A stretch of DNA of 64,000 nucleotides from Candidatus Limnocylindrales bacterium (GTDB taxonomy: Bacteria; Moduliflexota; Moduliflexia; Moduliflexales; JAUQPW01): assembly GCA_035559535.1 (NCBI GenBank), contig DATMBG010000010.1, forward strand, positions 25,832 to 89,831, in the 5' to 3' direction. Positions within the stretch are counted from its first letter, which is position 1, and each line of letters opens with the position of its first letter. The translations under genes and the position numbers were made by a program. The notes beneath the pieces were generated by a model, which saw only the letters and a program-made list of their open reading frames with translations, did not search any database and was not told where the DNA came from. Shown here piece after piece: positions 9,101 through 55,885 of this stretch.

Positions 9101-9562
9101 GGAAAGAGCCGTTTTACCTATTCCTCCCATGCCCAATAGGGCGATTATACGGCAGTGGTCGGTTCTAATCCATCGGGTTAGCTTACTCAGTTCCTCTTCC
9201 CGTCCATAAAAGGGTTCTGTTGGGGTCGCCTCCCCCCAGTCTTCTGAATAAGGTAGATCTTTCTGGGGTTTGATCCTGCTTTCAATATTCTGAATATGTG
9301 CTGTCAGCAAACTATCCCTGGCAGGTCCTTCTATCTTCATGTCCACGACCATAGCCGGGGGGGATTTAGAGAAGCCCCTACGAGCTTGAAGAAAGCCGAG
9401 AATTATAAGGGTAATGACCAGCAGGTCTAAGACAACCCAGTACAACCAGAAATGAGGCTGGATCCAGGTGAGCAGATAACTTAAAAACAGGCAACTTAAA
9501 AAGCCTATAACAATAATTAGACGCGCAAGCCTCGAGTAAGGTAGAAGGCAAAGTAATTTCAT
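6113..9562 (-). CDS. STAND NTPase: N-terminal 2-TM segment + NB-ARC/NACHT-like P-loop ([16 protein letters not shown]) + 14 WD40 repeats
   Basis: 1149 aa. Walker A and B are present. There are fourteen [22 protein letters not shown] repeats. The C-terminal tail ...[26 protein letters not shown] is typical of cyanobacterial-type WD40 proteins. Confidence 0.85.
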
Positions 9563-15652: not shown

Positions 15653-18073
15653 TTAGTTTACGGGTTGTAGAACACCTCTTCCTTCTTCCTGCAGGGTACC
15701 TTGCCCTTGAACAGACGTTTGAAAATTTACCGTAACACGTAATGCTCTTAACCCCTGGATGCCTTGAAGATCCTCCAACTCCAAATCTTCTACTTCACCG
15801 GTCAGGTAACCGGTATCCTGGAGATAGTCGATATATTGCCGATATTCTTGAGCTTCTTTAGGTTGAGAATAAACAATGGCGATCTTACCGGGTTGAGTTA
15901 ACCGCTCCTCCCCACCTTTAATCGTGGCTTTATCGATGCGTTTCTTCACAATTTCGTATCGGATGTTGTAGGCCCCATCCACATCGAATTGCTTTTCATC
16001 GATGCGGAACCGAATGGACATGGGCATATTCTGAACCAGGATCAAATGAGTTGTTTCTAAAGGAAGCTTCAAACTTCCTTTTAACTCTTCGGTTTTCCTG
16101 GCTATCCCACAGACCGTCATGAGCTGCCAGAGGCGAAGATTTTTCAAATAAAGTAAATCGAATTTTCCATCCTCAACCAGGGAGGCACCGATATAAATCC
16201 CGTGATCCACACCATCGGTTTTATGCTTTTCAAAATAGTGGGGAAACATAGCCTGGGCTTTTTCTTCTTCTTCATCGAGATAATCTGAGATGGTATCATT
16301 GATTCGGGCAACGCTTTCTTCAAAATCCTTCCGCTTACGATAGATAATTCCCAATTGTGGGTCCAGGGCAGATCGATAAGCCTGAATTTTATCCTGGATA
16401 CCCGGACCGAAATCCTTCAAGGTATCGAACAGAGGCTCAACTTCCCGACGTAAGAAATCAAGCAAAGTGATTTCATCTCCGGAGCCCAGACTCACTTCTA
16501 CTTTTGCTATTTTGTTATTGATCCGGTAAACAAGTTCATCGAGAATAGGAAGGGATTTATAACTCGCCGCCAGGAGAATAATTTCCCTGACCAGCGTCAG
16601 GTGCTCGATTAAATCAGCCTGAATCGCTGCATTACGCTGCGTAGAGGAGCCCCGGATATCTGTGGCCCCAAATAAGGGATAAACGTTATCGAATACAATC
16701 TGCTCTATTTCCTCGTGGATACCCCGATTACGTTTCTCAATATAGTTAAGAACGGCTTTTCGAAAACGCCAATCTACCGAAGGATGGATGGCGGTGTACT
16801 TTTTCTTGATGATGGCCTGAACACGATTATCCAGCTCTTCCATACTTCGATTAACGGCCACAGAGAACAAAGGAAGAACTTCCCCTAACTTCAGGGCATT
16901 TAAGGCATTCAGTCCGCCGGGGTTCGGGGATCCCAATTCCATGGTCCCGATCAGTTTATCCTGATAGTAGAGAGGCGCAACGATCATGCTTCGAATCCCT
17001 TGGGCGAGGATCTGATCTTCAACCGGCGAGCGATGGGGATAAGTTACAAGATCTTCAATGATTAGCAAATTCCCCTGTTTAACCGAACGTTCATAAATAG
17101 AACCGGCAAAGTCAGAAGTTTTAAAATGTTGAGAATCGGAGAAGATACAACATTTCTCGAGTTTACGTCCATAATTAATCAGAAATACCTGATCCCCCTG
17201 GATAGCTGCAAGTCCCAACACCAGATCCGGTAACCTGAGGAGTGTTCTTAGCTTTTCCTGCAAGCTGCGGAATTTTTTATTGGAGACAATAGATTCCCTG
17301 TCTATCAAATCTCGCTTTAAAGATGAAAGAACCTCTTGATCTGTGACATCGGTAGCCGTAATGACCGTAAAACCGTGAAACTCAAAATTCTCAGGGGGTA
17401 TGAGTTCCATCCAGGTCTTTAAGTTCGTCAGGTTATTGAAGAGGTATTTTTTTTCCTCATCGGTCAGGAGTTTGACTTCTCCGACTTTTTTTACCTCACA
17501 AAATCGTGGATCAAAGTTGAGCTTAAAGTGACGGTCTAATCCCGTTTCAGGATCTCGGGTTGTAAATATCAGAGGATATTCGAACTCAAATTTTACATCG
17601 TAAAACTTCTGGAGAATCTGGCTATAGGCTTTCAACAGGGTACCATAGGTCATGGCCCGCTCATCTAAATGCGTTCGGCCGATGAAGTTCTTATCTTCCA
17701 TCAGAAATCGCTTAAAAGATGGCGTGGCATAGAAAATCCGGAAGTGATAAGGAATAATAGCCGCCAGATAATCTCGATCCCAAAAAGCCGGTGGAAAAAC
17801 CAGAGTCATCAGCATATCTATGAGTTCTTTGTGCTTCTCGAGGATCGAGAGGTCTTCAATAGGACCTAATAACTCAGGTACCTTCTCTAATTCTTCTCGA
17901 ACTTTTTTAATAAGGGGAGCCTTAAAGGCCTGATCCCAGGATCCGGTCTGATTCCAGAAGTCTATAAAGGGTGAGAAACTGAGGACACATTTAAAAGGAA
18001 ACTTCCGGGTATTAGAGATCTGGATAAGGCTCTCGTCAAAAACCAGATTAAATTGTTTATTGATTGTAATCAT
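15653..18073 (-). CDS. large cytoplasmic protein with central GAF-like domain, function unknown
   Basis: 806 aa; the central segment ...LIIEDLVTYPHRS...LIGTMELGS... is GAF-like. The rest has no motif I recognise. Confidence 0.45.
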   Translation of the reverse strand: MITINKQFNLVFDESLIQISNTRKFPFKCVLSFSPFIDFWNQTGSWDQAFKAPLIKKVREELEKVPELLGPIEDLSILEKHKELIDMLMTLVFPPAFWDRDYLAAIIPYHFRIFYATPSFKRFLMEDKNFIGRTHLDERAMTYGTLLKAYSQILQKFYDVKFEFEYPLIFTTRDPETGLDRHFKLNFDPRFCEVKKVGEVKLLTDEEKKYLFNNLTNLKTWMELIPPENFEFHGFTVITATDVTDQEVLSSLKRDLIDRESIVSNKKFRSLQEKLRTLLRLPDLVLGLAAIQGDQVFLINYGRKLEKCCIFSDSQHFKTSDFAGSIYERSVKQGNLLIIEDLVTYPHRSPVEDQILAQGIRSMIVAPLYYQDKLIGTMELGSPNPGGLNALNALKLGEVLPLFSVAVNRSMEELDNRVQAIIKKKYTAIHPSVDWRFRKAVLNYIEKRNRGIHEEIEQIVFDNVYPLFGATDIRGSSTQRNAAIQADLIEHLTLVREIILLAASYKSLPILDELVYRINNKIAKVEVSLGSGDEITLLDFLRREVEPLFDTLKDFGPGIQDKIQAYRSALDPQLGIIYRKRKDFEESVARINDTISDYLDEEEEKAQAMFPHYFEKHKTDGVDHGIYIGASLVEDGKFDLLYLKNLRLWQLMTVCGIARKTEELKGSLKLPLETTHLILVQNMPMSIRFRIDEKQFDVDGAYNIRYEIVKKRIDKATIKGGEERLTQPGKIAIVYSQPKEAQEYRQYIDYLQDTGYLTGEVEDLELEDLQGIQGLRALRVTVNFQTSVQGQGTLQEEGRGVLQPVN

Positions 18074-21694: not shown

Positions 21695-22891
21695 TCATTG
21701 GGAGAGGGGAATCTCGACGAAAAAAGAAGTTCCCTGATCTACCTGGCTGATTAAATCTACCTTACCTCCGTGGACCTGAATAATTCCGTAACTGACACTT
21801 AAACCAAGTCCCACTCCCTTACCCACCTCTTTGGAGGTGAAGAAAGGATCGAAAATCTTTTTTAAATGAGCTTCCGGAATACCGGCTCCATTATCGGATA
21901 GGGTAATTCGAATAAAGGGGAGCGGAAGATGGAGGAGGATTTCATCTGGAGGAAGTTTGGAAATTAATTCCGAGCTAATATATAAGTTTTTTTGTCTTTG
22001 GGACTTCAGCAAGGCTTCTTCGGCATTATCTATAATGTTTAAAAAAGCTTGCTGAAGCTGATAGAAATCACCCTGGATTTCAGGCAATCCAGGTGCTAAA
22101 TTCTTTGTAACCTGGATGTGATTTTGGGCCAGACTGGCGGCTCGTAACTCCAAAACACTTTCGAGAACTTCATTTATTTGAAGGGGTCGCTTGATGGGTT
22201 TAGATCCCCGCGTAAAGAGAAGAAGGTTTTGGATAATTTTATTAATACGATTGGCCTCTTTATTAATTTTTTCCAGGCTCTGGCGGACTTTTTCCTCCAG
22301 ACCGGGATCTTTAAGAAGCAACTGCGCATAACCCATTACTCCGGCCAGAGGATTATTAATCTCATGGGCGATTCCTGATAAAAGCTGACCTAAAGAAGCC
22401 ATCTTTTCGGCCTGAACCAATTGGTTTTGCGTGACTCTGAGCTGGTTTAAGGTCTCCTCCAATTTTTTATTGGTCTCCAGTATTTCCAGATTCTTCTGTT
22501 TCAGTTCTTGGGCAGCTTCTCTTTTTTCCAGGCCCCTTCGAATGGTAATCTTTAACTCTTCATCTGAACAGGGTTTGTTGAGATAATAGTAAGCTCCCTT
22601 GCTCATGGCCTCAATGGCACTGCTCATAGATCCATATCCTGTCAGGACCACCACAATAGTATCCGGGAAAACTTTCTTAACCTCTTCTAAAACTTCTAAC
22701 CCTGTTATATCCTGGAGTTTTAAGTCCGTTAAAACCAGATCGAATTCCGTTTGTCGAATTTTCTCTATGGCTCCCCGCCCATTTGCAACCGTTACGATAT
22801 GGTATCCTTCTTGTTCCAGCTTTTTTTCCAGAACCAGCCGTACCAACTCCTCATCCTCTACGATGAGGATACTCTTTTTTGAGTTTCCCAT
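21695..22891 (-). CDS. hybrid two-component protein: N-terminal receiver domain + HisKA + HATPase_c histidine kinase
   Basis: ILIVEDEELVR...DLVLTDLKL (REC), SGIAHEINNPL (H-box) and a C-terminal GxGxG ATPase. Confidence 0.8.
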   Translation of the reverse strand: MGNSKKSILIVEDEELVRLVLEKKLEQEGYHIVTVANGRGAIEKIRQTEFDLVLTDLKLQDITGLEVLEEVKKVFPDTIVVVLTGYGSMSSAIEAMSKGAYYYLNKPCSDEELKITIRRGLEKREAAQELKQKNLEILETNKKLEETLNQLRVTQNQLVQAEKMASLGQLLSGIAHEINNPLAGVMGYAQLLLKDPGLEEKVRQSLEKINKEANRINKIIQNLLLFTRGSKPIKRPLQINEVLESVLELRAASLAQNHIQVTKNLAPGLPEIQGDFYQLQQAFLNIIDNAEEALLKSQRQKNLYISSELISKLPPDEILLHLPLPFIRITLSDNGAGIPEAHLKKIFDPFFTSKEVGKGVGLGLSVSYGIIQVHGGKVDLISQVDQGTSFFVEIPLSQ

Positions 22892-23170
22892 GGATTTTAT
22901 CTCCTATACCAGATGAGAAAAGCTTTTACCGCCTTATTTCAAAATCTCTGTAACCGGAGAGGTTCAAAATGGCTATGATTTAGAAGTATGCCTCCAAGCA
23001 TAGGATTTCTTCTCGGACTTGTCAACGAAATTTTTATGTGCCTTTTTATTTGACAAGCTATAAAACCTCATGATATGTTTTTTTCGATTTTTCTACTTGT
23101 TTTAGCTTTCTCTTAATCCAGAGGTTAGGATCCATGATATCAGAATTTATCTTTTAGAACATGATGGAAT

Positions 23171-23932
23171 ATGGCTAAGATATTGTTAATAAGTTCGGAC
23201 CCGATTACAAACGGTTACTTGATTCCTGTTTTGGAGCTTGCCGATCATACGGTAATCCGGATAGATTCGTTAGAGGCAGCTTTACATCTCCTGCTTCATC
23301 AGGCTCGGGAAGAAAAAGAACCCCTTCCGGAGCTCGTAATGGTAGAGGGTCATATGTTGGGAGGTATTTCCCCTTTAGAGTTCCAGAATAAAGTAAAGAC
23401 TCTTTTGAGAGGAACCCAGCCAGAGACTCCCATCCTGTTTATTTTGGAAGAGGGGAGTTTAACCCAGGATGCTAAGGACACCCTCAAAGGGCAAATCACC
23501 TATCTTGTAAAACCTACCCATATCTCTGCCTTTTCGGATTTTTTCAGAGAGCTTCGGAGCTCTTTAGATCAGCTTTCTCGATCCGGTGGAGGGAGTTTGA
23601 GTAAACATACATCCCTGGTAGCCAATCTGGCCGAAGAACATCTGCCTTCCCTGCTTCATATGTTAAGTTTGGTAAGGGCCTCTGGATATGCGACTTTGAC
23701 AAATCCCAGAACGAAGCAAACAGGTACACTCCACCTGCGGTATGGAGATGTTACCAAAGCGATTCTGGTGGATACGACGAGTTCTCCTAAACGGAGGCTA
23801 GAAGGAACCGAAGCCCTTCAAGCCCTTGTAGATTGGGAAGAAGGAGTTTTTTCCTTCGGACGAGCAGACCCTGAAAAAATGCCAAAGGGGGAATCAGCCC
23901 GCTGGGTTGTGTTGAAATGTGGAATTCGTTAA
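23171..23932 (+). CDS. pseudo-receiver domain protein (Glu at the phospho-acceptor position) with C-terminal domain of unknown function
   Basis: The N-terminal 120 aa has the CheY-like pattern (ILLISSDP ... LVMVEGHM ... LVKPT) but the acceptor is E. The C-terminal ~110 aa may be a DUF4388-like module; I cannot verify this. Confidence 0.45.
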   Translation: MAKILLISSDPITNGYLIPVLELADHTVIRIDSLEAALHLLLHQAREEKEPLPELVMVEGHMLGGISPLEFQNKVKTLLRGTQPETPILFILEEGSLTQDAKDTLKGQITYLVKPTHISAFSDFFRELRSSLDQLSRSGGGSLSKHTSLVANLAEEHLPSLLHMLSLVRASGYATLTNPRTKQTGTLHLRYGDVTKAILVDTTSSPKRRLEGTEALQALVDWEEGVFSFGRADPEKMPKGESARWVVLKCGIR

Positions 23933-23956
23933 CCCACTTTTTCACTATCCAGGAGA

Positions 23957-25921
23957 ATGGCGGGAATGATGCTTAATCTTCAAGAACTGAGAAAGAGCGC
24001 ATTATTTACAGGGGTAGAGGTAGCAGAACTCCGGAGAGTTCTCCCTCAATTGGAGAAAAAATATTACTCCCGAGGGGCCATCATCTTTAAAGAAGGAGAT
24101 CCCAGTCAGGCTCTGTATCTTATCCTCTCGGGACAGGTCAAAATCATCGAACGAAATCAACAGGGACGACCGGAGGTACTCATGTACCTGCACGCCGGAG
24201 ATTTTTTTGGTGAAACTTCGGTTATCACCCATGAAATCAGATCCGTTACCGCAGAGGTGGTCATCGATGCAGAGATCCTCATCATCCCTAAAGCAGTTTT
24301 TGAAGAGATCTATCATCGAGAGCCTAAGATCTTACACAACGTCATTAGAACCCTGAGTCAAAGGCTCTCCTTAAAAACCAAAGGACTTGTCCAACGTAAC
24401 CCCAAAACCCATAGTATTATAGCCATTTACCATCCTAGGAAAGAAATCGAAGGCGCTTTCTTAACGAGTAACCTGGCCGCCAGCATTTTGAAACAAACCG
24501 AAACCTCGGTCGCCGTCTTAGATCTCTCCCTTAAGAATCCTAATCTGGTCAAGATTTTGAGGCTGGATTCAGACAAAGAAATTAAGGACGAAGAAATCAA
24601 TCAGGAACTCGTAGAAAAGATGTTGATTTCCCATCCCTCGGGTTTAGAGCTTTTAGCTTTATCTCCTGAATTTCTTAGAGAAGGGAAAATCGGTCGAGAG
24701 AAAATAGCCCGGATTTTATCTATTCTCAAGGAGAAGTTTAGCTATACGGTAATAAATACGAGTCCGGAAATTACAAAAGGTACTTTTGAAGCTTTAGACC
24801 TATCGGACAAAATTGTCCTTTTAATTCCCTTTGGGGAAGAACCTCCGGTCCATATGTTCGATCAGCAGGAGGTTATCACTGTATATTACCAGACCCCTCA
24901 ACACCCTGGTGCAGTGGAGGAGTTCTTGACAGGAGCGCCACCTTTGATAATAGATTGGGGGCCTGAATTCCTCGAGCCGTTTCATAAAGCCGGGGAATTG
25001 ATTGTTGAGAAAGCTTCAGATAATCCTACCAGTGAGGCCATTCATAGGTTGGCCAGGCACATTACCGGGCTAAAATTGGGTATTGCCCTGGGCGGGGTTG
25101 CGGCAAGGGGATTGGCCCATATAGGGGTTCTGGATGTCCTGGAACAGAATAAGATACCCATAGACCTCATAGCAGCCACCAACACCGGAGCGATCATTGG
25201 AGCAGCCTATGCTTCGGGAGTCAGAAGTAAAAATCTCATCGAGATCGCCTCCCAATTGGCCTATGAGTATGAATTGGGGACCTTGAGGGACTTCAGGATT
25301 TTTCAAGGGGGATTCCTATCAAACAAAAAAGTTCTTAAACTCATTGCAAGCTTTCTGGGACCCTTGAAGACGTTTGGCCGGTTAAAAATCCCCCTTCGGA
25401 TTATTACCATGGAATTAGAAACCGGAAAAGACGTTGCCTTTGAAAAGGGTTCTTTATGGGATGCCCTTCAAGCCTCCATGGCCGTACCAGGTCTGTTTCC
25501 ACCTGTAAAGATAGGAGGAAAAACTTTTGTAGATGGGTCCAACATAAATCCCATTCCGGTCAGCCATCTTATCGAAATGCGCGCCGATATTGTCGTAGGG
25601 GTTAATGCGTTGTCCCCTCTGAGACGGTATTTCTCCACCGGTTCCGGAGATATGGAAAAAAGTACTCGGGAAGAGGCTTTAACCGAAGATTGGAAGATGA
25701 TGGATATCATCATGAGATCATTCCAAAAATTGCAACATGAGATAGGCCTTTCCAAAGCCACTCTGGCAGATCTTACCATCACACCTGAGGTTACCGGATT
25801 CAGTTGGAAGGACTTTAAAAGAGCACCTGAAATTATCGACGCCGGTCGAAGGGCTGCCGAGCAAGCGTTACCTAAACTTTTAGAAATTCGGAGTAAGCGA
25901 AAACTCTACAGGCGAAGTTAG
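23957..25921 (+). CDS. cyclic-nucleotide-binding domain + patatin-like phospholipase domain protein (neuropathy-target-esterase-like architecture)
   Basis: Residues 10-120 form a CAP-type cNMP-binding domain (FGETS ... IRSVTAE). Residues 370-560 form a patatin domain (GIALGGVAARGLAHIGVL, DGSNINPIPV). The nucleophile motif reads ATNTG instead of GxSxG. Confidence 0.75.
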   Translation: MAGMMLNLQELRKSALFTGVEVAELRRVLPQLEKKYYSRGAIIFKEGDPSQALYLILSGQVKIIERNQQGRPEVLMYLHAGDFFGETSVITHEIRSVTAEVVIDAEILIIPKAVFEEIYHREPKILHNVIRTLSQRLSLKTKGLVQRNPKTHSIIAIYHPRKEIEGAFLTSNLAASILKQTETSVAVLDLSLKNPNLVKILRLDSDKEIKDEEINQELVEKMLISHPSGLELLALSPEFLREGKIGREKIARILSILKEKFSYTVINTSPEITKGTFEALDLSDKIVLLIPFGEEPPVHMFDQQEVITVYYQTPQHPGAVEEFLTGAPPLIIDWGPEFLEPFHKAGELIVEKASDNPTSEAIHRLARHITGLKLGIALGGVAARGLAHIGVLDVLEQNKIPIDLIAATNTGAIIGAAYASGVRSKNLIEIASQLAYEYELGTLRDFRIFQGGFLSNKKVLKLIASFLGPLKTFGRLKIPLRIITMELETGKDVAFEKGSLWDALQASMAVPGLFPPVKIGGKTFVDGSNINPIPVSHLIEMRADIVVGVNALSPLRRYFSTGSGDMEKSTREEALTEDWKMMDIIMRSFQKLQHEIGLSKATLADLTITPEVTGFSWKDFKRAPEIIDAGRRAAEQALPKLLEIRSKRKLYRRS

Positions 25922-28133: not shown

Positions 28134-30059
28134 TTATCCTTTCATAGAATCGATCACAAACGCCCTGAAATCCTTCTTTCGGATAAGATCAGGCTCTTTG
28201 GAAACGGCCTCCAATACCAGGGTGAAAGTCCGTACCATATTTTCTCCTGTGAGGGAATCTTCTGACTTCTCAGATAGAATCGGTAAAGTGAGCGTTAAAG
28301 TCCGGGACAGCAGTTTATTATCTGAAAGGAAGGCCTTCGGACGTGTTGAAACAATTTTTAAGGCAGTTTGTACCAAATCCATCAAGAGATCTCCCCGGAT
28401 CAAGGTCGATTTATCCTCGGTGGCTACCTGAAATAGCGAATCGAGAACTCCGGGTAGCAGCAGTTTCTCTTGATCGTACAAACCTGGATTCCTGGCTACG
28501 GTAATCAGGGCTAACCGGACGGTATCTTCTAACAAAACTCCGGCCACTAAGCGGTTTGAACCTCGATAGATAGCTTCCAGAGTCGTCACCAGGGTATCGG
28601 CAAGTAAATTGGGATAGCGCTCAAAAATAGCGGAATTTCTGGTGACAATATTCATGGCCAGTTGGGTTATCTGGGTTTTTTGATCTTCGGTTATAAATTG
28701 AGCAACGGCTCCTGACAGGGCTTTTAAGATAGATTTCATCGTCTGGGACAAAAGATCGGGCTGAAAATCCGAAGAAGAAGCCGGTTCATGTTTCCGACCA
28801 CCCTTACCGGGCTTTCGGACAGGTTGGGAGCTGAGGATAAGCTGCAAATTTCGCAGGGTTTCGGTTAAAGAGGTTACAAAAAGCTGTTTAAACAACTCTC
28901 CACTAACCGCCGCGTCCGGATTCTCTCCCACAGCTTGCAAAACACCCTTCAAAACCTGGGAAACGACATCTTGATTTTGAAGAAATACGGCTGAATTCTT
29001 TCCGATAGTTTCAAGTGAAATTTTAAGAATATCCGAGAACAGGGCCTTATTAGGATTCAATAACCTGCTGAGATCTTGATTGGCAACCTGAAGGACCGAG
29101 CTCAGAACCATAGAAGCCAGGTTTTCTCCCCCCCCTATTAACGAAGCATTGCGGGATATGCTATCCAGCGCTATCTGTAAAATATCCGTCAGGGTTTGGG
29201 TTCGGAAGACACTATCTTGTCGAAGATTAACCGAAACGACATCCAAAACCGATGTAATCACATCCTGCAAGACTTCTTTATTTATCCACAATCCGGTGGT
29301 TTTAGAAACCCCATCGATGGTTGCCTGGAGGAGCTCTTTCAGATAATTTCCCTTGGTTGCTACGGTAATATGATCGGAAGCATGATTTAGAACTGCCCTT
29401 AGGACCGAGCCGAATTTATTATCGCCTAAAAACAAACTTGAATTATTGGCGGCGATTTTAAGGGTGGTATCTAAAAGCCCCTTGAAGATCTCATCTTTGC
29501 TGAGGGCCGTTACATCGGTTGGGAAAACCTGTAAAAAGGTGGTAATGGCTCTGGAGAGGGTAGGATTGCTTTCGGCGAAAAGCGGTGCATTTTCCCTTAC
29601 TACACTCAACGTGAGATCAAAAATTTTTGTAAATAGCTTGCTTTTCTTTTTCTCTTCTATTTTAAACAAAGCGGCAATTGCGGCATATTGCTCCTCTTCC
29701 TCCACATGGGCAAAGATAGTTTGAAACTCTGGAGCATTCTTAAAAACTTTGATAATACTTTTAGCTCCCAGGATTCCTTCGTAAGCCTCAATAAGGGATT
29801 GAATACTTGTTTCCGCTGTTTCCGGAACATCCTTATCCTGCCAGGGTTTATGATAAGGCCCTCCGGGCCGAACCAGATTTTTTCCTTCATTTTGAAAGTA
29901 ATCTTCAACTATTAACCACCCGGTTTCTTTCTTAGGCCTGGGCAATACAATCTTCTCCTGGACCACTTTCTGGGTAACCAAATTTTGAATTCCAAAACCA
30001 AACTTTAAGGCCGCTCTAACCCCTGCAAATATAAGATCAATCTCTCCTCCCCCAAACAT
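28134..30059 (-). CDS. 641-aa internally repetitive alpha-helical protein of unknown function
   Basis: At least 7 repeats of ~40 aa with pattern N.a.F......l...vL..vL.a. It is 4 nt upstream of the SBP gene, so probably co-transcribed. Confidence 0.5.
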   Translation of the reverse strand: MFGGGEIDLIFAGVRAALKFGFGIQNLVTQKVVQEKIVLPRPKKETGWLIVEDYFQNEGKNLVRPGGPYHKPWQDKDVPETAETSIQSLIEAYEGILGAKSIIKVFKNAPEFQTIFAHVEEEEQYAAIAALFKIEEKKKSKLFTKIFDLTLSVVRENAPLFAESNPTLSRAITTFLQVFPTDVTALSKDEIFKGLLDTTLKIAANNSSLFLGDNKFGSVLRAVLNHASDHITVATKGNYLKELLQATIDGVSKTTGLWINKEVLQDVITSVLDVVSVNLRQDSVFRTQTLTDILQIALDSISRNASLIGGGENLASMVLSSVLQVANQDLSRLLNPNKALFSDILKISLETIGKNSAVFLQNQDVVSQVLKGVLQAVGENPDAAVSGELFKQLFVTSLTETLRNLQLILSSQPVRKPGKGGRKHEPASSSDFQPDLLSQTMKSILKALSGAVAQFITEDQKTQITQLAMNIVTRNSAIFERYPNLLADTLVTTLEAIYRGSNRLVAGVLLEDTVRLALITVARNPGLYDQEKLLLPGVLDSLFQVATEDKSTLIRGDLLMDLVQTALKIVSTRPKAFLSDNKLLSRTLTLTLPILSEKSEDSLTGENMVRTFTLVLEAVSKEPDLIRKKDFRAFVIDSMKG

Positions 30060-30914: not shown

Positions 30915-33086
30915 TCAGGGCTCTGCGGGTGTGGCGCTCCATCTCCAAAGATCAACGTCTTTGATATCACGAGGCCCAGGTCTCAAGGTTTTTTGAACTT
31001 TAGGTAAAATGGTTTCCATAGTTTCCAGATAAAGACGGAACTGATTAAGTTCAGGAGAAATCTGGTAAGCCTGATTCCTGAGAGTAAAGGCTTGTGCATC
31101 TCCCTGGGCTTTTAAGATTTTTTCCTCCTTGAAGGCCAGGCCGGATTGGATCGTTTTTGCAGCTTCCCCTTTAGCCTGATTCACTGATTCTTCTGCAAAG
31201 GTTAATGCTCGGTTAATGATATGGAGTTTATCCTCCTGGGCACTGGCCACATCCCGGAATGCAGAATGAACCTCCCGGGGAGCATCTACAGCCAACAGTT
31301 GAACAAAGAGAACTTCTATACCGGCTTCATAGGCATCTAGAGCCTCTTGCAGAAGATGCTGGACCTTCCTTTCTATATTTCCCCTTTCTATGGTAAGCAC
31401 GGCATCAATTTTCATCTGTCCAATGACTTCACGAAGTCCAGATAATGTGAAGCTCCGTACCAGACGGTCCGGTTCGTTCATCCGATACGCATATTGTACC
31501 GGATCCTTCACCTTATAGTGTACCGTTAGATTGATATCCACAATGTTCTCATCCCCGGTCAGGAAGAAAGATTCCTCCTCTATCTGTTTCTGTTCAGACC
31601 AAAGACTATTCGAAACCATGAACTGTGAGCCTAAGTTTGAACCCTCGGTCACTGTCTGGGCTTTGACCTGATTCTGGCTATCTAAGGAAAGATTATTCGT
31701 TCTAAATCCAAGCTCAACCCTTCGAATCAAATCCTTATGGACCTTTTCAATTTTTTCAATAGGCCATGGAACGTGGTAATGAAGGCCGGGAGCAAGGTTG
31801 GAGGCAATGATCTTACCAAACCGTAATTTTACTCCGATCTCTCCGGGTTGGATTGTAACGAAACCGCTATACAAATATATAACCGCAAGTGCAATGAGAG
31901 CACCCGCTTTGATCCGGATAGCCGTTAAATGGAAACCTGTTAGGGAGCTAAACTTATCCCGAAGATGGATCCATTCTTCTGGAACATTGGTTCGTCGGAA
32001 GCTGAGAATAAACAAACTGATTACTCCGAGAGCCGCAACGGTTTTGATGCTCTCAGGAATCAGATTGGAGGCGGCCCCAAAGGTCATTCGAGGATCCAGG
32101 CCAGAGCTCCAATATATCCAGTTGACTACATACCCAGCTAACAAACTTACCACAACAATGGTTCCCAGATAGAGGGCCACGACTCTGCGCCCCAGAAATT
32201 TTAGAAGGACGACTATGGTTCCAAGGTTTGTGGCGGGTCCAGATAAGAGAAAAATCAGTGCCGCTCCTGGATTTAACCCTTTTAGGATCAGGGTTGCAGC
32301 AATGGGAGTGGAAGCGGTGGCACAGGTATACATAGGAATACCAATAAGCAGCATAACCAACATGCTCATAAAACCACCCCTTAAATATTTTTCGATAACA
32401 GACGCCGGGAGAAGAACCGCGATAACCCCGGATAAGATTACTCCCACTGTTACCCAGTAAGAGGTATCATCAATCAATTGTTGAAACGTTCTATAAAACT
32501 TCTGGATCCAGCCGCCAGACACACCTACAGGTCCAAGCACGGTCTCAAAGTAAGATTCTTCTTTGAGAGCATGGGAATGATGATCTGGCAAAGAATGGGA
32601 GTTCCTAGCTACAGCAGGACCATGATCCTGGGGTGTAAAAGGTGGATCAGGCGTTTGAGTATTTTGTTTTTGATCCCCCCAGAAATTGGTAACGATCCCA
32701 GCTGTTACCGCTGTAACAAAAGCAGCTATGGGACGTATAGTTGCCATGATAGGATCCATTAAAGCATAACTGACGAAGATGGTATCTACATCCATCTCGG
32801 GAGTCGAAATCAGAAAAGAAACTGTTGCTCCATTATTAGCACCCTGTTTTTTTAAGGAGAGGGCAGTTGGCACAACGCCACAAGAACAGAGTGGCATGGG
32901 TACTCCAATTAGAGATGCCCAGAAAACCGATTTGATCTTTCCGGTTCCCAGGTACGTAAGGATGGCCCTCGCAGGGATCAACAAGATGATAAGAACGCCT
33001 ACCAGATAACCAAATAATAGGAAGACGGAGGCTTCTTTAAGGATGATCCAGGTCTCTTGAAGGATTTGGAATAAAAAATCTATCAT
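30915..33086 (-). CDS. fusion protein: COG0701/ArsP-like two-repeat permease (CxC motifs) + C-terminal SPFH/band-7 (HflK/stomatin-like) domain
   Basis: N-terminal 460 aa are multi-TM with MPLCSCGVVP and PMYTCATASTP, an ArsP-like duplicated Cys motif. C-terminal 260 aa are SPFH-like (QPGEIGVKLRFGKI...). Confidence 0.7.
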   Translation of the reverse strand: MIDFLFQILQETWIILKEASVFLLFGYLVGVLIILLIPARAILTYLGTGKIKSVFWASLIGVPMPLCSCGVVPTALSLKKQGANNGATVSFLISTPEMDVDTIFVSYALMDPIMATIRPIAAFVTAVTAGIVTNFWGDQKQNTQTPDPPFTPQDHGPAVARNSHSLPDHHSHALKEESYFETVLGPVGVSGGWIQKFYRTFQQLIDDTSYWVTVGVILSGVIAVLLPASVIEKYLRGGFMSMLVMLLIGIPMYTCATASTPIAATLILKGLNPGAALIFLLSGPATNLGTIVVLLKFLGRRVVALYLGTIVVVSLLAGYVVNWIYWSSGLDPRMTFGAASNLIPESIKTVAALGVISLFILSFRRTNVPEEWIHLRDKFSSLTGFHLTAIRIKAGALIALAVIYLYSGFVTIQPGEIGVKLRFGKIIASNLAPGLHYHVPWPIEKIEKVHKDLIRRVELGFRTNNLSLDSQNQVKAQTVTEGSNLGSQFMVSNSLWSEQKQIEEESFFLTGDENIVDINLTVHYKVKDPVQYAYRMNEPDRLVRSFTLSGLREVIGQMKIDAVLTIERGNIERKVQHLLQEALDAYEAGIEVLFVQLLAVDAPREVHSAFRDVASAQEDKLHIINRALTFAEESVNQAKGEAAKTIQSGLAFKEEKILKAQGDAQAFTLRNQAYQISPELNQFRLYLETMETILPKVQKTLRPGPRDIKDVDLWRWSATPAEP

Positions 33087-35910: not shown

Positions 35911-37605
35911 ATGGAAAGATTTAATACTCTGTTTGGGTGGATATTTCTGGCTGTTAGTGTAGCAACCCCATTCCTCTGGTTCTATTCTTTTCCTTTAGAA
36001 TTCCCATGGGATTGGATGGACCTTTCTTTTGAGGGGGCTTCTCTGATTGTTTTCATTGTTGGTTACCTTTTTGTTAGAAAATGGCAGGTTCCTGCTTTGG
36101 AAATCGGTTGGGGCTTAGTCAGTTATAGTTTTCTTTTAGACTTTTTGTGTGGATTTGCAAAGGAATTAGAGAGATGGAACATAATAATCGAAGGACTTCT
36201 TCGAACCGGAGGTTTATTACTGATTGCAACGGGTCTATATTTTTTGCGAAAAAGACGGCAGACGGAGCTTGCCGAAGTCAAACAGGCCGCAGAAACAATA
36301 TGGCAGCAAGTGTATCACGACCCTCTGACCGGGCTACCGAATCGAATGCTCTTTGAGGATCGCCTTACCCTGGAGTTGGCCCATGCACGGCGGGATAAGC
36401 AGGGGTTGGCGGTGATGTTCCTGGACCTGGATCATTTTAAGCTTATCAACGATACTCTGGGCCATTCGGTAGGAGATCAATTGCTTCAAAACGTAGCCCA
36501 TCGGTTAAGAGATGCTTTGCGGGGAACCGATACGGTAGCTCGTATGGGAGGTGATGAATTCGCTTTATTACTTACCCGGGTGACCCATGCAGAGAATGTG
36601 GCCAGAGTGACTCAAAAAATTCTTCATGCCCTTAAACCTCCGTTCAATTTCGGGGGCTACGATTTTCATATCACCGCCAGTATCGGAATTACTCTATATC
36701 CCAGTGATGGAGAGGATACCCAGACCTTGCTGAAAAACGCCGATACTGCTTTATATCGTGCTAAAGAGCAGGGCCGGAATGTCTATCAATTTTATACGCC
36801 GGCCATGAATGCTAAGACCCTGGAGCGGCTGACCCTGGAAACTAACCTGCGTCGCGCACTGGAACGTAAGGAATTTGTAATTTACTACCAGCCCCGGGTG
36901 AAGATTAACACAAAACGGATTATCGGCATGGAGGCTTTGGTACGCTGGCAACACCCGGAACTGGGATTGATCTCGCCGGTAAAATTTATTCCCTTGGCCG
37001 AAGAAACCGGACTCATTATACCTCTTGGTGAGTGGGTCTTACGGACCGCCTGTGAACAAACCAAAGCCTGGCAGGAAGCAGGTTTTCCTCCCTTACGGGT
37101 CGGCGTAAACCTCTCGGCGCGGCAGTTCCAACAACCTAACCTGGTTGAAAGGGTCGCTCAGGTATTAAAAGAAACCGGCCTCCACCCCCATTACTTAGAG
37201 CTAGAAATTACCGAAAGTGCCGCCATGCAAAATGCCGAATATACCCTTCCGGTACTGTATCACCTCAAAGAAATGGGAATCCATATCTCCATCGATGACT
37301 TCGGTACCGGCTACTCTTCCCTCAGCTATCTAAAAAAATTTCCCTTCCATACTCTAAAACTGGATCAGTCCTTTATCCGGGACCTGACTACAGATCCCAA
37401 CGATGCCATGATTGCAAAGGTCGTTATCACCCTGGCCCACGGCTTAAAACTCGAAGTGGTGGCCGAAGGTGTGGAAACCCAAGAACAGCTTAACTTTCTT
37501 AAACAACTCCAGGGTGATGAAGTTCAGGGTTATCTGTTCAGTAAACCTTTACCGGCTGAAGAATTTGAGGAGTTACTCCGACAGGAGATGGAACGGAAGG
37601 AATAA
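35911..37605 (+). CDS. membrane-anchored diguanylate cyclase/phosphodiesterase (GGDEF + EAL)
   Basis: Four N-terminal TM helices, the RMGGDEFALL GGDEF motif and the EALVRW EAL motif. Confidence 0.85.
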   Translation: MERFNTLFGWIFLAVSVATPFLWFYSFPLEFPWDWMDLSFEGASLIVFIVGYLFVRKWQVPALEIGWGLVSYSFLLDFLCGFAKELERWNIIIEGLLRTGGLLLIATGLYFLRKRRQTELAEVKQAAETIWQQVYHDPLTGLPNRMLFEDRLTLELAHARRDKQGLAVMFLDLDHFKLINDTLGHSVGDQLLQNVAHRLRDALRGTDTVARMGGDEFALLLTRVTHAENVARVTQKILHALKPPFNFGGYDFHITASIGITLYPSDGEDTQTLLKNADTALYRAKEQGRNVYQFYTPAMNAKTLERLTLETNLRRALERKEFVIYYQPRVKINTKRIIGMEALVRWQHPELGLISPVKFIPLAEETGLIIPLGEWVLRTACEQTKAWQEAGFPPLRVGVNLSARQFQQPNLVERVAQVLKETGLHPHYLELEITESAAMQNAEYTLPVLYHLKEMGIHISIDDFGTGYSSLSYLKKFPFHTLKLDQSFIRDLTTDPNDAMIAKVVITLAHGLKLEVVAEGVETQEQLNFLKQLQGDEVQGYLFSKPLPAEEFEELLRQEMERKE

Positions 37606-39142: not shown

Positions 39143-39727
39143 TCAAGAACCTTCTTCGGCCAGGTAGTTGTCCAATTCTGATTTCAGAATACGCCATTCC
39201 CTTCCTACCTTTTGAGCATTGAGAGATCCTTCTTTGATCATTCTCCGGATAACCGCCGGGGTAACTTGTAGATAAGCACTGGCCTGTGCAACGGTCATAA
39301 CCTGAGGGACCTGGGATCGTGCATCTCCCAGCATTCTCGGCGTTTCATCCCCATCCTTCAAAGCCCCCTCCGCCCCATCGGTCTCCCCCTCTTCGAGCGC
39401 TTCGTAGTCTATAAAACCCATCTCGATATTCCGGGTAGAATAGGCTTCCAACTCCCTCTGGTAGGTCTCAATACTGGAACGGGTAATTCCGGAGGCATAA
39501 CGAGCCAGAGAAAAAATAAAAACCATCGCCAATAAAACTCCAAGCCCCGCGATAAGATAATAAATGGCCAGGACCCCGGATCGTCCCAGAGCCGGAATAG
39601 CTTCGACAATCGCTATCCCTAAAACGAGACAAATAAGGATAATCACAAAATAAAGCAGGAAAGAAAACGCGGTTTTAATGGAGGTCCCCGGATCGTTCCA
39701 GCGATTCATGCGATTTTTACGTTTCAT
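39143..39727 (-). CDS. membrane protein with C-terminal excisionase-family HTH DNA-binding domain
   Basis: Two TM helices, then MTVAQASAYLQVTPAVIRRMIKEGSLNAQKVGREWRI (HTH_17-like). Confidence 0.5.
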   Translation of the reverse strand: MKRKNRMNRWNDPGTSIKTAFSFLLYFVIILICLVLGIAIVEAIPALGRSGVLAIYYLIAGLGVLLAMVFIFSLARYASGITRSSIETYQRELEAYSTRNIEMGFIDYEALEEGETDGAEGALKDGDETPRMLGDARSQVPQVMTVAQASAYLQVTPAVIRRMIKEGSLNAQKVGREWRILKSELDNYLAEEGS

Positions 39728-55273: not shown

Positions 55274-55318
55274 GGTAAAGATGGTGAAAAATGAACTTTG
55301 CGTAAAAGGAGTGTAGCT

Positions 55319-55885
55319 ATGTTTTATAAATTAATGACTGTAAATGACTTGAAAGATTATTTACGTTTAGATAGAAGGACCTTATATAGACTGATTAAAG
55401 AAAACCGCATTCCGGCTATTAAAGTAAGTGGTCAATGGAGATTCCGTAAAGAGCAAATCGATGAATGGTTGGAAAACCAGCAAAATCTACCCAAACAGGA
55501 TCTCAGACCCAAAAAAAGAATTCTCGTAGTGGATGATGAAGAAGAAGTTCGAGATGTCATTCAGAAAGCCCTTTCCAAATCTGGTGAGTATCGAGTCGAT
55601 ACGGCCAGCAGTGGCAGTCAGGCTTTAGACCTCCTCCAAAAATCTACTTATCATTTGATGTTTGTCGATATTAAAATGCCCGGTATGGATGGTTTAGAGC
55701 TCATTAAAAAGGCAAAGGATCTCCATAAAGATATTAAAACGGTGGTTATAACCGGTTATCCTTCGAAAGAAAATGCCATTGAAGCCCTTAACCTGGGAGT
55801 GACCAGCTATCTGGAAAAGCCTCTGGACGACATCAATCAGGTTCTTCATGTAACCAACAGGATTTTTGAGCCGTCTCTTAATTAA
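55319..55885 (+). CDS. response regulator with N-terminal excisionase-family HTH and C-terminal receiver domain
   Basis: MTVNDLKDYLRLDRRTLYRLIKENRIPAIKVSGQWRF (HTH_17-like), then ILVVDDEEEVR...MFVDIKMPGMDG (REC). Start chosen at the ATG 8 nt after AAGGAG. Confidence 0.65.
   Translation: MFYKLMTVNDLKDYLRLDRRTLYRLIKENRIPAIKVSGQWRFRKEQIDEWLENQQNLPKQDLRPKKRILVVDDEEEVRDVIQKALSKSGEYRVDTASSGSQALDLLQKSTYHLMFVDIKMPGMDGLELIKKAKDLHKDIKTVVITGYPSKENAIEALNLGVTSYLEKPLDDINQVLHVTNRIFEPSLN

What the first reader, a model, noticed from the sequence alone, without database searches (positions are those of the whole stretch)
23171..25921. Gene pair: pseudo-receiver protein + cNMP-binding/patatin (NTE-like) protein whose nucleophile Ser is Asn
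The second protein (23957-25921) joins a CAP-type cyclic-nucleotide-binding domain, with the phosphate-binding Arg intact, to a patatin phospholipase domain. In that domain the GxSxG nucleophile motif reads A-T-N-T-G (AAC Asn codon, one transition from AGC Ser), while the DGx Asp motif is present. It is either a cNMP-gated pseudo-lipase or scaffold, or a single-base error. The first protein (23171-23932), 25 nt upstream, has a receiver fold with Glu at the phospho-Asp position (a constitutive mimic?) plus an unknown C-terminal module. A cNMP-binding domain fused to a lipid-hydrolase effector resembles the effectors of cyclic-nucleotide antiphage systems (Pycsar/CBASS-like logic), but no cyclase is adjacent.
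Basis: partly seen in the sequence, partly recalled or inferred. Interest (0 to 1): 0.6.

Follow-up and report, generated by a model that had tools for sequence, protein, structure and literature searches.

The report
Dead lipase sensor with PATAN partner
This is a conserved two-gene signalling module from uncultured KSB3-like bacteria in which a cyclic-nucleotide-binding protein carries a lipase domain and an ATPase domain that have both lost their catalytic residues, and it sits next to a response-regulator look-alike that cannot be phosphorylated; it is a new variant of known protein families, not a sequencing error and not a phage-defence system.

Summary
Both ORFs and all quoted motifs are real. 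The Asn that replaces the patatin nucleophile Ser is not an error. All 41 homologues of at least 44% identity have Asn, encoded by AAC or AAT. They also carry two linked changes: GGG to GG[MIVL] and DGG to DGS. All 20 more distant relatives, and 144 of 146 representatives from a 1.84-billion-protein library, keep Ser. The dead patatin domain is under strong purifying selection (dN/dS 0.06).

Its Walker A and Walker B motifs are also destroyed. The cNMP phosphate-binding cassette is intact.

The upstream protein is a true pseudo-receiver fused to a PATAN (DUF4388) domain. It precedes the Asn-type gene in 8 of 8 loci examined and in 0 of 3 Ser-type loci. Its canonical paralogue sits in a CheA/CheW/CheY operon beside prepilin-peptidase genes.

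Best reading: a cNMP-sensing, non-catalytic scaffold that controls a PATAN output protein, probably acting on type IV pilus gliding. The output step is inferred.

The Pycsar/CBASS-like reading is not supported. I rate this a new variant of a known kind, of moderate interest.

The parts
23171..23932 (+). P1: pseudo-receiver + PATAN protein (253 aa)
   Evidence: The ORF was found and hits PF14332 (DUF4388/PatA_N) at E 1.9e-7. Orthologues of 45-92% identity lie immediately upstream of Asn-type P2 in 8 of 8 loci.
23171..23581 (+). Pseudo-receiver domain (aa 1-137). The acidic pair is S8-S9, the phospho-Asp position is E59 (codon 23345-23347), the beta-4 Thr is Glu, and the beta-5 Lys is kept.
   Evidence: Based on the alignment to canonical REC paralogues and to the neighbouring REC, the AF2 (beta-alpha)5 model and Foldseek top hits that are all receiver domains. 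dN/dS is 0.14 against L008.
23618..23929 (+). PATAN (DUF4388) domain, aa ~150-253
   Evidence: Pfam hit over aa 152-237. It is the most constrained part of the pair, with dN/dS 0.017. The model is of low confidence here.
23957..25921 (+). P2: cNMP-binding + dead MinD/ParA-like + dead patatin protein (654 aa; probable real start at 23966)
24014..24376 (+). CAP-type cyclic-nucleotide-binding domain (aa 20-140), with an intact phosphate-binding cassette (G85, E86, R95, S96; R95 codon 24239-24241)
   Evidence: PF00027 at E 5e-22. G85, E86 and R95 are conserved in 41 of 41 clade members. It aligns to T. thermophilus CRP, FGE...RS.
24404..25066 (+). MinD/ParA-fold domain (aa ~150-370) with a destroyed Walker A (H-P-R-K-E-I-E-G-A, nt 24431-24457) and Walker B Asp replaced by Asn (N267, nt 24755-24757)
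25070..25918 (+). Patatin-fold domain (aa 372-654) lacking the nucleophile
25091..25111 (+). Degenerate oxyanion-hole motif G-G-V-A-A-R-G (canonical form G-G-G-x-R-G)
   Evidence: The third Gly is M, I, V, L or T in 41 of 41 Asn-clade sequences and Gly in 20 of 20 Ser-type relatives.
25175..25189 (+). A-T-N-T-G in place of G-x-S-x-G; N409 codon AAC at 25181-25183
   Evidence: Other clade members use AAC or AAT.
25532..25540 (+). D526-G-S (canonical form D-G-G/A); the Asp of the catalytic dyad is retained
   Evidence: D526 is invariant in all 61 sequences. Position 528 is S, T or A in the Asn clade and mostly G elsewhere.
21695..22891 (-). Divergently transcribed REC-HisKA-HATPase_c hybrid kinase. 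It is the receiver-bearing neighbour conserved in this sub-clade.
   Evidence: Pfam hits. It is conserved at 75% and 97% identity, in the same position, in L006 and L008. The other sub-clade has a stand-alone canonical REC gene there instead.
22997..23079 (.). Back-to-back sigma-70-like promoter matches in the 279-nt divergent intergenic region: + strand 23050-23079 and - strand 23025-22997, each 10 of 12 matches
   Evidence: These are consensus matches only, and their number does not exceed the shuffled control.

Best explanation
P1 and P2 form a co-transcribed, non-enzymatic signalling adaptor pair specific to a KSB3/Moduliflexota-like lineage.

**What is shown.**
- P2 arose from an active cNMP/P-loop/patatin (NTE-type) protein.
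- One clade of P2 lost the lipase nucleophile and the oxyanion-hole glycine. It also lost the Walker A and Walker B motifs of its MinD-like domain.
- The same clade kept an intact cyclic-nucleotide pocket and strongly conserved folds.
- P1 is a degenerate duplicate of a chemosensory REC-PATAN response regulator. It has lost its phospho-acceptor chemistry but keeps a very strongly constrained PATAN domain.

**What is inferred.**
- P2 senses cAMP or cGMP through its N-terminal domain.
- It uses the dead MinD and patatin folds as dimerisation, membrane-binding or partner-binding surfaces.
- Through these it holds or releases P1.
- P1's PATAN domain is the output. By analogy with PatA-type regulators, it acts on the type IV pilus motor and so on gliding of the filaments.
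- The adjacent canonical receiver (a stand-alone REC, or the REC-histidine kinase in this window) supplies a phosphorelay input to the same node.

The logic resembles the PixD-PixE pair of Synechocystis, where a sensor sequesters an orphan PATAN regulator. Here a cyclic nucleotide takes the place of light.
For: **Loss of catalysis across the clade**
- Asn occupies the nucleophile position in 41 of 41 homologues of at least 44% identity, and Ser in 20 of 20 more distant ones.
- In a search of 1.84 billion representatives, 144 of 146 aligned hits have Ser.
- The GGG and DGG motifs are altered in the same clade.
- N409 aligns with the PlpD catalytic Ser.

**The domain is maintained, not decaying**
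- Patatin-domain dN/dS is 0.064, the lowest value in P2.
- Both AAC and AAT codons encode the Asn.
- The patatin core is as conserved as the cNMP domain: mean pairwise identity 0.67 against 0.69.

**The MinD/ParA-like domain is also dead**
- The P-loop is destroyed, and N267 replaces the Walker B Asp throughout the clade.

**The cNMP pocket is kept**
- The phosphate-binding cassette is conserved in 41 of 41 members and aligns with CRP.

**Gene-pair linkage**
- P1 lies immediately upstream of P2, on the same strand, in 8 of 8 Asn-type loci.
- A further 15 cluster pairs share a contig length.
- None of three Ser-type loci has a P1 gene: two by tblastn and called genes and one by Pfam labels of called genes only.
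- A receiver-bearing gene is always adjacent.

**Origin and likely output of P1**
- P1 is 42-44% identical to REC-PATAN-X proteins that have canonical DD/D/T/K residues.
- Those paralogues sit in operons with CheY, CheA, CheW, prepilin peptidase and a pilin-like gene.
- The PATAN domain has dN/dS 0.017.

**Literature**
- PATAN is the output domain that binds PilB1 and PilC, and orphan PatA-type regulators are re-wired to phosphorylation-independent sensors (bioRxiv 10.1101/2021.06.11.447907).
- KSB3 filaments glide, carry a partial type IV pilus gene set and have a very large signalling repertoire (PMC4312070).
- One MAG, GCA_030550175.1, carries both an Asn-type copy (L008) and a Ser-type paralogue (L005). 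This fits duplication followed by a change of function.
Against:
- No type IV pilus or motility gene lies next to any of the 8 loci. The link to pili rests on paralogy and on cyanobacterial literature.
- Ligand binding by the cNMP domain is inferred from motifs only, and some CAP-type domains bind other ligands.
- No cyclase was found in the window.
- The PATAN part of the P1 model has low confidence (pLDDT 50-77).
- The organism's taxonomy is uncertain. NCBI labels the identical protein as coming from a Ca. Limnocylindrales MAG, whereas relatives are labelled KSB3, Vecturithrix or Sedimentisphaerales.
Confidence: 0.5

Rival explanations
1. The Asn codon is a sequencing or assembly error, or the gene is a decaying pseudogene.
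For: AAC is one transition away from AGC.
Against: - Asn is present in 41 of 41 clade members from many samples and assemblers.
- Both Asn codons are used.
- Two other active-site motifs changed together with it.
- dN/dS is 0.06-0.11.
- The reading frame is intact, and a Logan assembly is identical over 19,239 nt.
Confidence: 0.01
2. P2 is a cyclic-nucleotide-activated membrane-lysing effector of an antiphage system (Pycsar/CBASS-like).
For: - The domain logic resembles PycTIR and CapV.
- PADLOC gives weak domain-level hits: PycTIR at 2e-10 on the cNMP domain and the phospholipase effector at 1e-8.
- NCBIfam CBASS_lipase scores 29 bits against a cut-off of 200.
Against: - The effector nucleophile is absent throughout the clade.
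- No cyclase is found in 64 kb.
- The neighbours are housekeeping or metabolic genes with conserved synteny at 62-97% identity.
- All scores fall far below the family cut-offs.
- The conserved partner is a PATAN pseudo-regulator, not a cyclase.
Confidence: 0.03
3. P2 is still a hydrolase or acyltransferase that uses non-canonical chemistry (another nucleophile, or Asn/Asp-assisted water) and is gated by cNMP.
For: - D526 and the overall active-site scaffold are invariant.
- Selection on the domain is strong.
- Position 408 is Ser or Thr in 40 of 41 members.
Against: - The acyl-enzyme mechanism of the patatin family requires the elbow Ser (established family knowledge).
- The third oxyanion-hole Gly is replaced by a bulky M, I, V or L in every member.
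- Ser or Thr at position 408 is just as common in active relatives (GTSxG, GSSxG).
- TgPL1, a patatin-like protein lacking the catalytic Ser, has no PLA2 activity (PMC10513453).
Confidence: 0.07
4. The pair is a non-catalytic signalling adaptor, but its output is not type IV pili. Alternatives include control of cell division or filament patterning, as for Anabaena PatA with the divisome, or lipid and membrane-state sensing, with the dead patatin fold acting as a lipid-binding sensor.
For: - No pilus gene lies near any locus.
- MinD/ParA folds typically position division or envelope machinery, as shown by hits to MinD, FleN, BcsQ, FlhG and TadZ.
- The listed paper PMC7380572 reports by its title that Anabaena PatA interacts with the divisome during heterocyst differentiation (title and abstract start only).
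- The patatin fold naturally binds acyl lipids.
Against: - The closest canonical paralogue of P1 is embedded in a Che/prepilin-peptidase operon.
- The only biochemically defined PATAN targets are PilB1 and PilC.
Confidence: 0.3

Closest known systems
Bacterial NTE-family / RssA-PlpD-type patatin-like phospholipases with N-terminal cNMP-binding and P-loop-like domains (Pfam PF00027 + PF24179/AAA_31 + PF01734)
   Different: The nucleophile Ser is Asn, the GGG oxyanion motif is GG[MIVL], and DGG is DGS. The Walker A and Walker B motifs of the middle domain are destroyed. The Asn clade alone is genetically coupled to a PATAN pseudo-regulator.
PatA-type (PATAN-REC) response regulators of cyanobacteria (PatA, PixG, PixE, LsiR) and the PixD-PixE sensor/regulator pair
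   Same: It has a PATAN domain (PF14332) joined to a receiver-fold domain. A CheY-like stand-alone REC is encoded next to it in most genomes. Its paralogue sits in a Che-type operon near pilus genes. It looks like an orphan copy that is probably independent of phosphorylation.
   Different: The domain order is reversed (REC-PATAN rather than PATAN-REC). The receiver lacks the acidic pair, the Asp and the Thr. The putative sensor partner is a cNMP-binding dead enzyme rather than a BLUF photoreceptor. No interaction data exist.
TadZ/CpaE and MinD/FleN/FlhG positioning ATPases
   Different: Here the two folds lie on separate proteins. The P-loop lysines and glycines and the Walker B Asp are missing, so ATP-dependent dimerisation is unlikely. 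No pilus or flagellar genes are adjacent.
Toxoplasma TgPL1, a patatin-like protein that lacks the catalytic Ser
   Same: It has a patatin fold without the nucleophile, keeps other active-site residues, and is proposed to have a lipid-binding or co-factor role (PMC10513453).
   Different: TgPL1 is eukaryotic, unrelated in architecture and the substituting residue was not read here. It has no cNMP, MinD or PATAN context.
CBASS CapV/CapE and Pycsar PycTIR effectors
   Different: There is no cyclase, no defence-island context and no catalytic Ser. The sequence scores are far below the family cut-offs.

Membership tests
Patatin-like phospholipase (PF01734; PlpD/RssA type) | Patatin alpha/beta fold | tested here: met
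Patatin-like phospholipase (PF01734; PlpD/RssA type) | Nucleophile Ser in G-x-S-x-G | tested here: not met
   The motif is A-T-N-T-G. N409 aligns to the PlpD GTSMG Ser. Asn is present in 41 of 41 clade members.
Patatin-like phospholipase (PF01734; PlpD/RssA type) | Oxyanion-hole motif G-G-G-x-[RK]-G | tested here: not met
   The motif is G-G-V-A-A-R-G. The third Gly is M, I, V, L or T across the whole clade and Gly in 20 of 20 Ser-type relatives.
Patatin-like phospholipase (PF01734; PlpD/RssA type) | Catalytic Asp in D-G-[GA] | tested here: met
   D526-G527 is invariant in 61 of 61 sequences. The third position is Ser instead of Gly.
Patatin-like phospholipase (PF01734; PlpD/RssA type) | Lipid acyl-hydrolase activity | not testable with these tools
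   This needs an enzyme assay. Absence of activity is predicted from the missing nucleophile.
NTE-family architecture (cNMP + P-loop-like + patatin) | cNMP-binding domain(s) N-terminal to a P-loop-like domain and a patatin domain | tested here: met
   The order is cNMP (aa 35-121), a MinD/ParA-like P-loop fold (aa 150-370), then patatin. PF24179 NTE_Ploop itself hits only more distant homologues such as P0060.
MinD/ParA (SIMIBI) ATPases | Fold of the family | tested here: met
MinD/ParA (SIMIBI) ATPases | Deviant Walker A motif K-G-G-x-G-K-[ST] | tested here: not met
   The window reads H-P-R-K-E-I-E-G-A opposite MinD's S-G-K-G-G-T-G-K-T, so both lysines and all glycines are lost.
MinD/ParA (SIMIBI) ATPases | Walker B Asp | tested here: not met
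   The motif I-N-T-S (N267, invariant in the Asn clade) lies opposite I-D-c-P of MinD and I-D-T-S of Ser-type relatives.
Response-regulator receiver (PF00072) | (beta-alpha)5 CheY-like fold | tested here: met
   The AF2 secondary-structure order is b1a1...b5a5. All top Foldseek hits are receiver domains with TMt about 0.7. P1 is 42-44% identical to paralogues that hit PF00072 at 1e-20.
Response-regulator receiver (PF00072) | Phospho-acceptor Asp, acidic Mg2+ pair, and conserved Thr/Ser and Lys | tested here: not met
   The Asp is E59, the DD pair is S8-S9, and the Thr is Glu; only the Lys (YLVKP) is kept. Pfam Response_reg gives no hit at E<0.1.
PatA-type PATAN regulators | PATAN domain (PF14332) | tested here: met
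   31.6 bits against a cut-off of 25, over aa 152-237.
PatA-type PATAN regulators | PATAN N-terminal to a phosphorylatable REC; binds PilB/PilC | tested here: not met
   The order is REC-PATAN and the REC is degenerate. Binding to PilB or PilC cannot be tested with these tools.
Pycsar/CBASS effector | Adjacent nucleotide cyclase/CD-NTase and a catalytically competent effector | tested here: not met
   No cyclase domain was found in any scanned ORF of the 64-kb window. The nucleophile is absent. CBASS_lipase scores 29 bits against a cut-off of 200.
CAP/CRP-type cyclic-nucleotide-binding domain (PF00027) | Beta-roll fold with the phosphate-binding cassette G-E...R-[ST] | tested here: met
   78 bits against a cut-off of 27.5. 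G85, E86 and R95 are conserved in 41 of 41 members. The alignment to T. thermophilus CRP covers FGE...RS.
CAP/CRP-type cyclic-nucleotide-binding domain (PF00027) | Actual cAMP/cGMP binding | not testable with these tools
   This needs ITC, DRaCALA or a similar binding assay.

The most novel reading that the evidence does not exclude
A second-messenger-gated sequestration switch built entirely from dead enzymes. In this reading, cAMP or cGMP binding to P2 reshapes a scaffold of pseudo-MinD and pseudo-patatin domains. That scaffold captures or releases the pseudo-receiver/PATAN protein, which in turn steers the type IV pilus motor and the gliding of multicellular KSB3 filaments. It would be a cyclic-nucleotide analogue of the light-driven PixD-PixE switch. 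It would also be, as far as I could find, the first functional bacterial pseudo-patatin.
Probability: 0.2. Interest if true: 0.65.

Novelty: new variant of a known kind. Interest (0 to 1): 0.45.

Why it matters
- It gives a clean, clade-wide example of a bacterial pseudo-phospholipase. The same protein is also a pseudo-ATPase and is paired with a pseudo-receiver, and all of these are under strong purifying selection. Three catalytic or signalling folds have therefore been repurposed as interaction modules in one operon.
- It links PATAN-domain regulators genetically to a cyclic-nucleotide sensor. Outside cyanobacteria the partners of PATAN regulators are largely unknown.
- It offers a testable entry point into how uncultured gliding KSB3/Moduliflexota filaments process signals. 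These organisms cause bulking in anaerobic wastewater reactors.
- For annotation, these genes are currently labelled 'patatin-like phospholipase' or 'NTE family protein' and should not be counted as lipases.

Tried and rejected
- **Sequencing error:** rejected on clade-wide conservation, use of both Asn codons and an identical separate assembly.
- **Defence system:** the PADLOC scan gave only domain-level hits. Scans of the window's ORFs found no cyclase.
- **Upstream gene in a Ser-type locus:** I tested whether the 151-aa gene upstream of a Ser-type homologue (L005) is a hidden PATAN protein. It shows no similarity and no Pfam hit.
- **Other neighbours as part of the system:** the CHAT-TPR and M48 genes upstream in L002 and L004 are absent from L003 and from the window, so they are not core.
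- **GTDB genome scan:** the scan with the Asn-clade profile returned only three full-length clade members.
- **Literature on bacterial pseudo-patatins or cNMP-patatin proteins:** nothing specific was found.
- **PATAN structural relatives:** Foldseek of the P1 model gave no PDB match for the PATAN half, and the model there has low confidence.


Full report
**1. The observation**

The window contains the two ORFs at the stated coordinates: 23171-23932 (P1, 253 aa) and 23957-25921 (P2, 654 aa). Both are on the + strand and are separated by 24 nt. P2 reads A-T-N-T-G at aa 407-411. The codons are GCC ACC AAC ACC GGA at 25175-25189, and V-D-G-S lies at aa 525-528.

Pfam assigns a cNMP_binding domain (aa 35-121, E 5e-22) and a Patatin domain (aa 377-538, E 7e-27). 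A direct phmmer alignment to the solved structure of P. aeruginosa PlpD (5fqu, E 1e-37) places N409 opposite the Ser of PlpD's GTSMG motif. It places D526 opposite the Asp of PlpD's DGG. The quoted motifs are therefore the real catalytic positions.

An SD-like AGGAG at 23951-23955 and the public gene calls (651 aa) suggest that the true start is ATG 23966. This does not affect anything else.

**2. Asn is a fixed feature of a clade, not an error**

A search of 5.8 billion proteins found 161 homologues. In a 61-sequence full-length alignment, all 41 sequences of 44-100% identity to P2 carry Asn at the nucleophile position. All 20 more distant full-length relatives (25-37% identity) carry Ser.

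Two further active-site motifs changed in the same 41 sequences:
- The third Gly of the oxyanion-hole GGG is M, I, V, L or T. It is Gly in 20 of 20 Ser-type relatives.
- DGG is DG[S/T/A].

The dyad Asp remains invariant. The Asn codon is AAC in five loci and AAT in three. A Logan assembly of SRR7882662 is identical to the window over 19,239 nt.

Against the 94%-identical orthologue (L008), dN/dS is 0.11 for P2 as a whole and 0.064 for the patatin domain. That is the lowest value of any P2 domain. Within the clade the patatin core is as conserved as the cNMP domain, with mean pairwise identity 0.67 against 0.69.

A search of 1.84 billion 50%-identity representatives returned 59,035 hits. Of the 146 best hits that could be aligned, 144 have Ser. 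Only the query's own cluster has Asn. One unrelated lineage (P0233) has Gly there, together with EVS in place of DGx, which marks an independent inactivation. The Asn clade is therefore narrow, collapsing to essentially one 50% cluster, and is clearly derived from active ancestors.

**3. A third domain, also dead**

The evidence:
- Pfam gives only a weak AAA_31 hit.
- A profile built from 16 family members hits P. furiosus MinD (1g3q) at E 1.3e-9 over the full length. ParA-family 3ea0, Soj, FleN and Wzc-type kinases follow.

The deviant Walker A (S-G-K-G-G-T-G-K-T in MinD) reads H-P-R-K-E-I-E-G-A in the window. The Walker B Asp is Asn (N267), invariant in the Asn clade, whereas Ser-type relatives keep I-D-T-S.

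Pfam now recognises this general architecture: PF24179 'NTE_Ploop' hits more distant homologues. P2 is therefore a derived member of the bacterial NTE-type cNMP/P-loop/patatin family. The cNMP cassette is intact, with G85, E86 and R95 conserved in 41 of 41 members. It aligns with T. thermophilus CRP over FGE...RS.

**4. The upstream protein**

P1's C-terminal half is a PATAN domain (PF14332/DUF4388, 31.6 bits against a cut-off of 25). Its N-terminal half gives only a marginal sequence hit (NCBIfam CpdR, E 0.019). However, it is 42-44% identical over the whole of P1 to a roughly 420-aa paralogue family. That family has a canonical receiver (DD, D, T and K all present; PF00072 at E 1e-20), followed by PATAN and an extra C-terminal domain.

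Against those paralogues and the neighbouring kinase's REC domain, P1 shows these changes:
- S8-S9 in place of the acidic pair;
- E59 in place of the phospho-Asp;
- Glu in place of the beta-4 Thr;
- the beta-5 Lys retained.

The AF2 model shows the b1a1...b5a5 order with E59 at the end of beta-3. All top Foldseek hits are receiver domains, including the CikA pseudo-receiver.

The Glu is not conserved. Orthologues have D (including the 92%-identical one), S, A or E at this position, and the roughly 50%-identity sub-clade also loses the Lys. 'Pseudo-receiver' is therefore correct, while 'constitutive phospho-mimic' is not supported. The PATAN domain is the constrained part: dN/dS is 0.017, against 0.14 for the pseudo-receiver.

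**5. Genomic context**

P1 lies immediately upstream of Asn-type P2, on the same strand, in all eight loci examined. These are the window/L001, L002, L003, L004, L006, L008, L009 and L010. Fifteen further P1/P2 cluster pairs share the same longest-contig length.

A receiver-bearing gene is always adjacent:
- In the roughly 50%-identity sub-clade it is a stand-alone canonical REC, 90-95% identical between genomes.
- In the window's sub-clade it is a divergent REC-HisKA-HATPase kinase at 21695-22891, 75-97% identical.

None of the three Ser-type loci has a PATAN gene. In L005 and L007 this rests on tblastn and the called genes, and both carry STAS and VWA genes downstream. The third locus, for P0050, had no DNA available and rests on the Pfam labels of its called genes. 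One MAG (GCA_030550175.1) carries both an Asn-type copy (L008, 94%) and a Ser-type paralogue (L005).

The rest of the window is housekeeping or metabolic: FtsH, ClpP, a sigma-70 factor, ABC transporters and dehydrogenases. It contains no nucleotide cyclase; the only related gene is a GGDEF-EAL protein at 35911-37605. PADLOC gives only weak, domain-level hits.

**6. A clue to function**

The canonical REC-PATAN-X paralogue sits in a conserved operon in both a Vecturithrix-like 6.5-Mb contig and Ca. Vecturithrix granuli. The operon also encodes:
- a CheY-like REC;
- CheA (Hpt, H-kinase_dim, HATPase and CheW domains);
- CheW;
- a glycosyltransferase;
- a prepilin peptidase (A24);
- in one of the two genomes, an N_methyl pilin-like gene.

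This mirrors the cyanobacterial Tax systems. There a PatA-type PATAN regulator and a CheY are encoded together, and the PATAN domain is the output that binds PilB1 and PilC. Orphan PatA-type copies in those organisms have been re-wired to phosphorylation-independent sensors (bioRxiv 10.1101/2021.06.11.447907). KSB3 filaments glide, have a partial type IV pilus gene set and have an exceptionally large signalling repertoire (PMC4312070).

**7. Interpretation**

Shown:
- P2 is a derived, lineage-specific NTE-type protein. Its lipase and ATPase chemistries are abolished, while its folds and cNMP pocket are maintained by selection.
- P1 is a degenerate duplicate of a chemosensory PATAN regulator.
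- The two genes are tightly linked, and only in the Asn clade.

Inferred:
- P2 acts as a cyclic-nucleotide-responsive scaffold that binds or releases P1.
- P1's PATAN domain acts on a downstream machine, most plausibly the type IV pilus motor.
- The adjacent receiver adds a phosphorelay input.

The main rival keeps the adaptor idea but changes the output to division or patterning, or to lipid sensing. Sequencing error, a defence effector and a cryptically active lipase are all poorly supported.

**8. Novelty**

The domains and the three-domain architecture are known. New here are:
- the clade-wide, selection-maintained double inactivation;
- the exclusive pairing with a pseudo-receiver/PATAN protein.

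A eukaryotic patatin-like protein that lacks the catalytic Ser is on record (TgPL1; PMC10513453). I found no description of a bacterial one. I rate the finding a new variant of a known kind, of moderate interest. The mechanism is speculative but testable.

**Taxonomic caveat**

NCBI labels the identical protein as coming from a Ca. Limnocylindrales MAG. Relatives are labelled KSB3, Ca. Vecturithrix (phylum Ca. Moduliflexota), Sedimentisphaerales or simply 'bacterium'. I did not place the window's own lineage independently.

Noticed in passing
L088 10001-16807 and L089 10001-17246 (related loci): The canonical roughly 420-aa paralogue of P1 (true REC + PATAN + an unassigned C-terminal domain of about 130 aa) heads an operon with a CheY-like REC, CheA, CheW, a GT4 glycosyltransferase, a prepilin peptidase and, in L089, an N_methyl pilin-like gene. 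The C-terminal domain has no Pfam match.
   Followed up: partly
P0233 (from; 622 aa, 32% identical to P2): This is a second, independent dead patatin in the same cNMP/P-loop/patatin family. It has Gly at the nucleophile position, EVS in place of DGx, and Arg in place of the third oxyanion-hole Gly.
   Followed up: no
L005 and L007 (Ser-type homologue loci): Ser-type relatives of 35-37% identity are followed by a conserved convergent STAS (anti-sigma-antagonist-like) gene and a VWA-domain gene instead of being preceded by a PATAN gene. One of them lies in the same MAG (GCA_030550175.1) as an Asn-type copy.
   Followed up: partly
window 28134-30059 (-): A 641-aa protein has no Pfam family, but it is syntenic and 62-93% identical in L006 and L008, downstream of the pair beyond a TPR protein and a TAT-signal solute-binding protein.
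   Followed up: no
window 6113-9562 (-): An 1149-aa protein has 13 or more WD40 repeats filling the C-terminal ~590 residues and an N-terminal ~560 residues that the listed WD40-type hits do not cover.
   Followed up: no
window 30915-33086 (-): A 723-aa protein fuses an ArsP_1-type predicted permease (aa 14-322) to an SPFH/Band 7 domain (aa 411-642).
   Followed up: no
window 15653-18073 (-): An 806-aa protein has only a short GAF match (aa ~323-390). The rest is unassigned.
   Followed up: no
window 35911-37605 (+); 55298-55885 (+); 39143-39727 (-): Other signalling genes in the window are a GGDEF-EAL protein, an HTH_17-REC response regulator, and a second protein with a C-terminal HTH_17 domain.
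   Followed up: no
L002 2247-6587 and L004 2187-6525: In two of the Asn-clade loci a ~990-aa TPR-CHAT protein and a ~450-aa M48-peptidase/TPR protein precede the REC-PATAN-P2 triad. They are absent from L003 and from the window.
   Followed up: partly
L002 6714-7100 and equivalents in L003, L004, L009, L010: The stand-alone REC upstream of the pair is 90-95% identical between genomes whose P1 and P2 are each only 44-49% identical to the window's copies. It may therefore be under much tighter constraint than its neighbours; identity of P1 and P2 among those genomes themselves was not measured.
   Followed up: no
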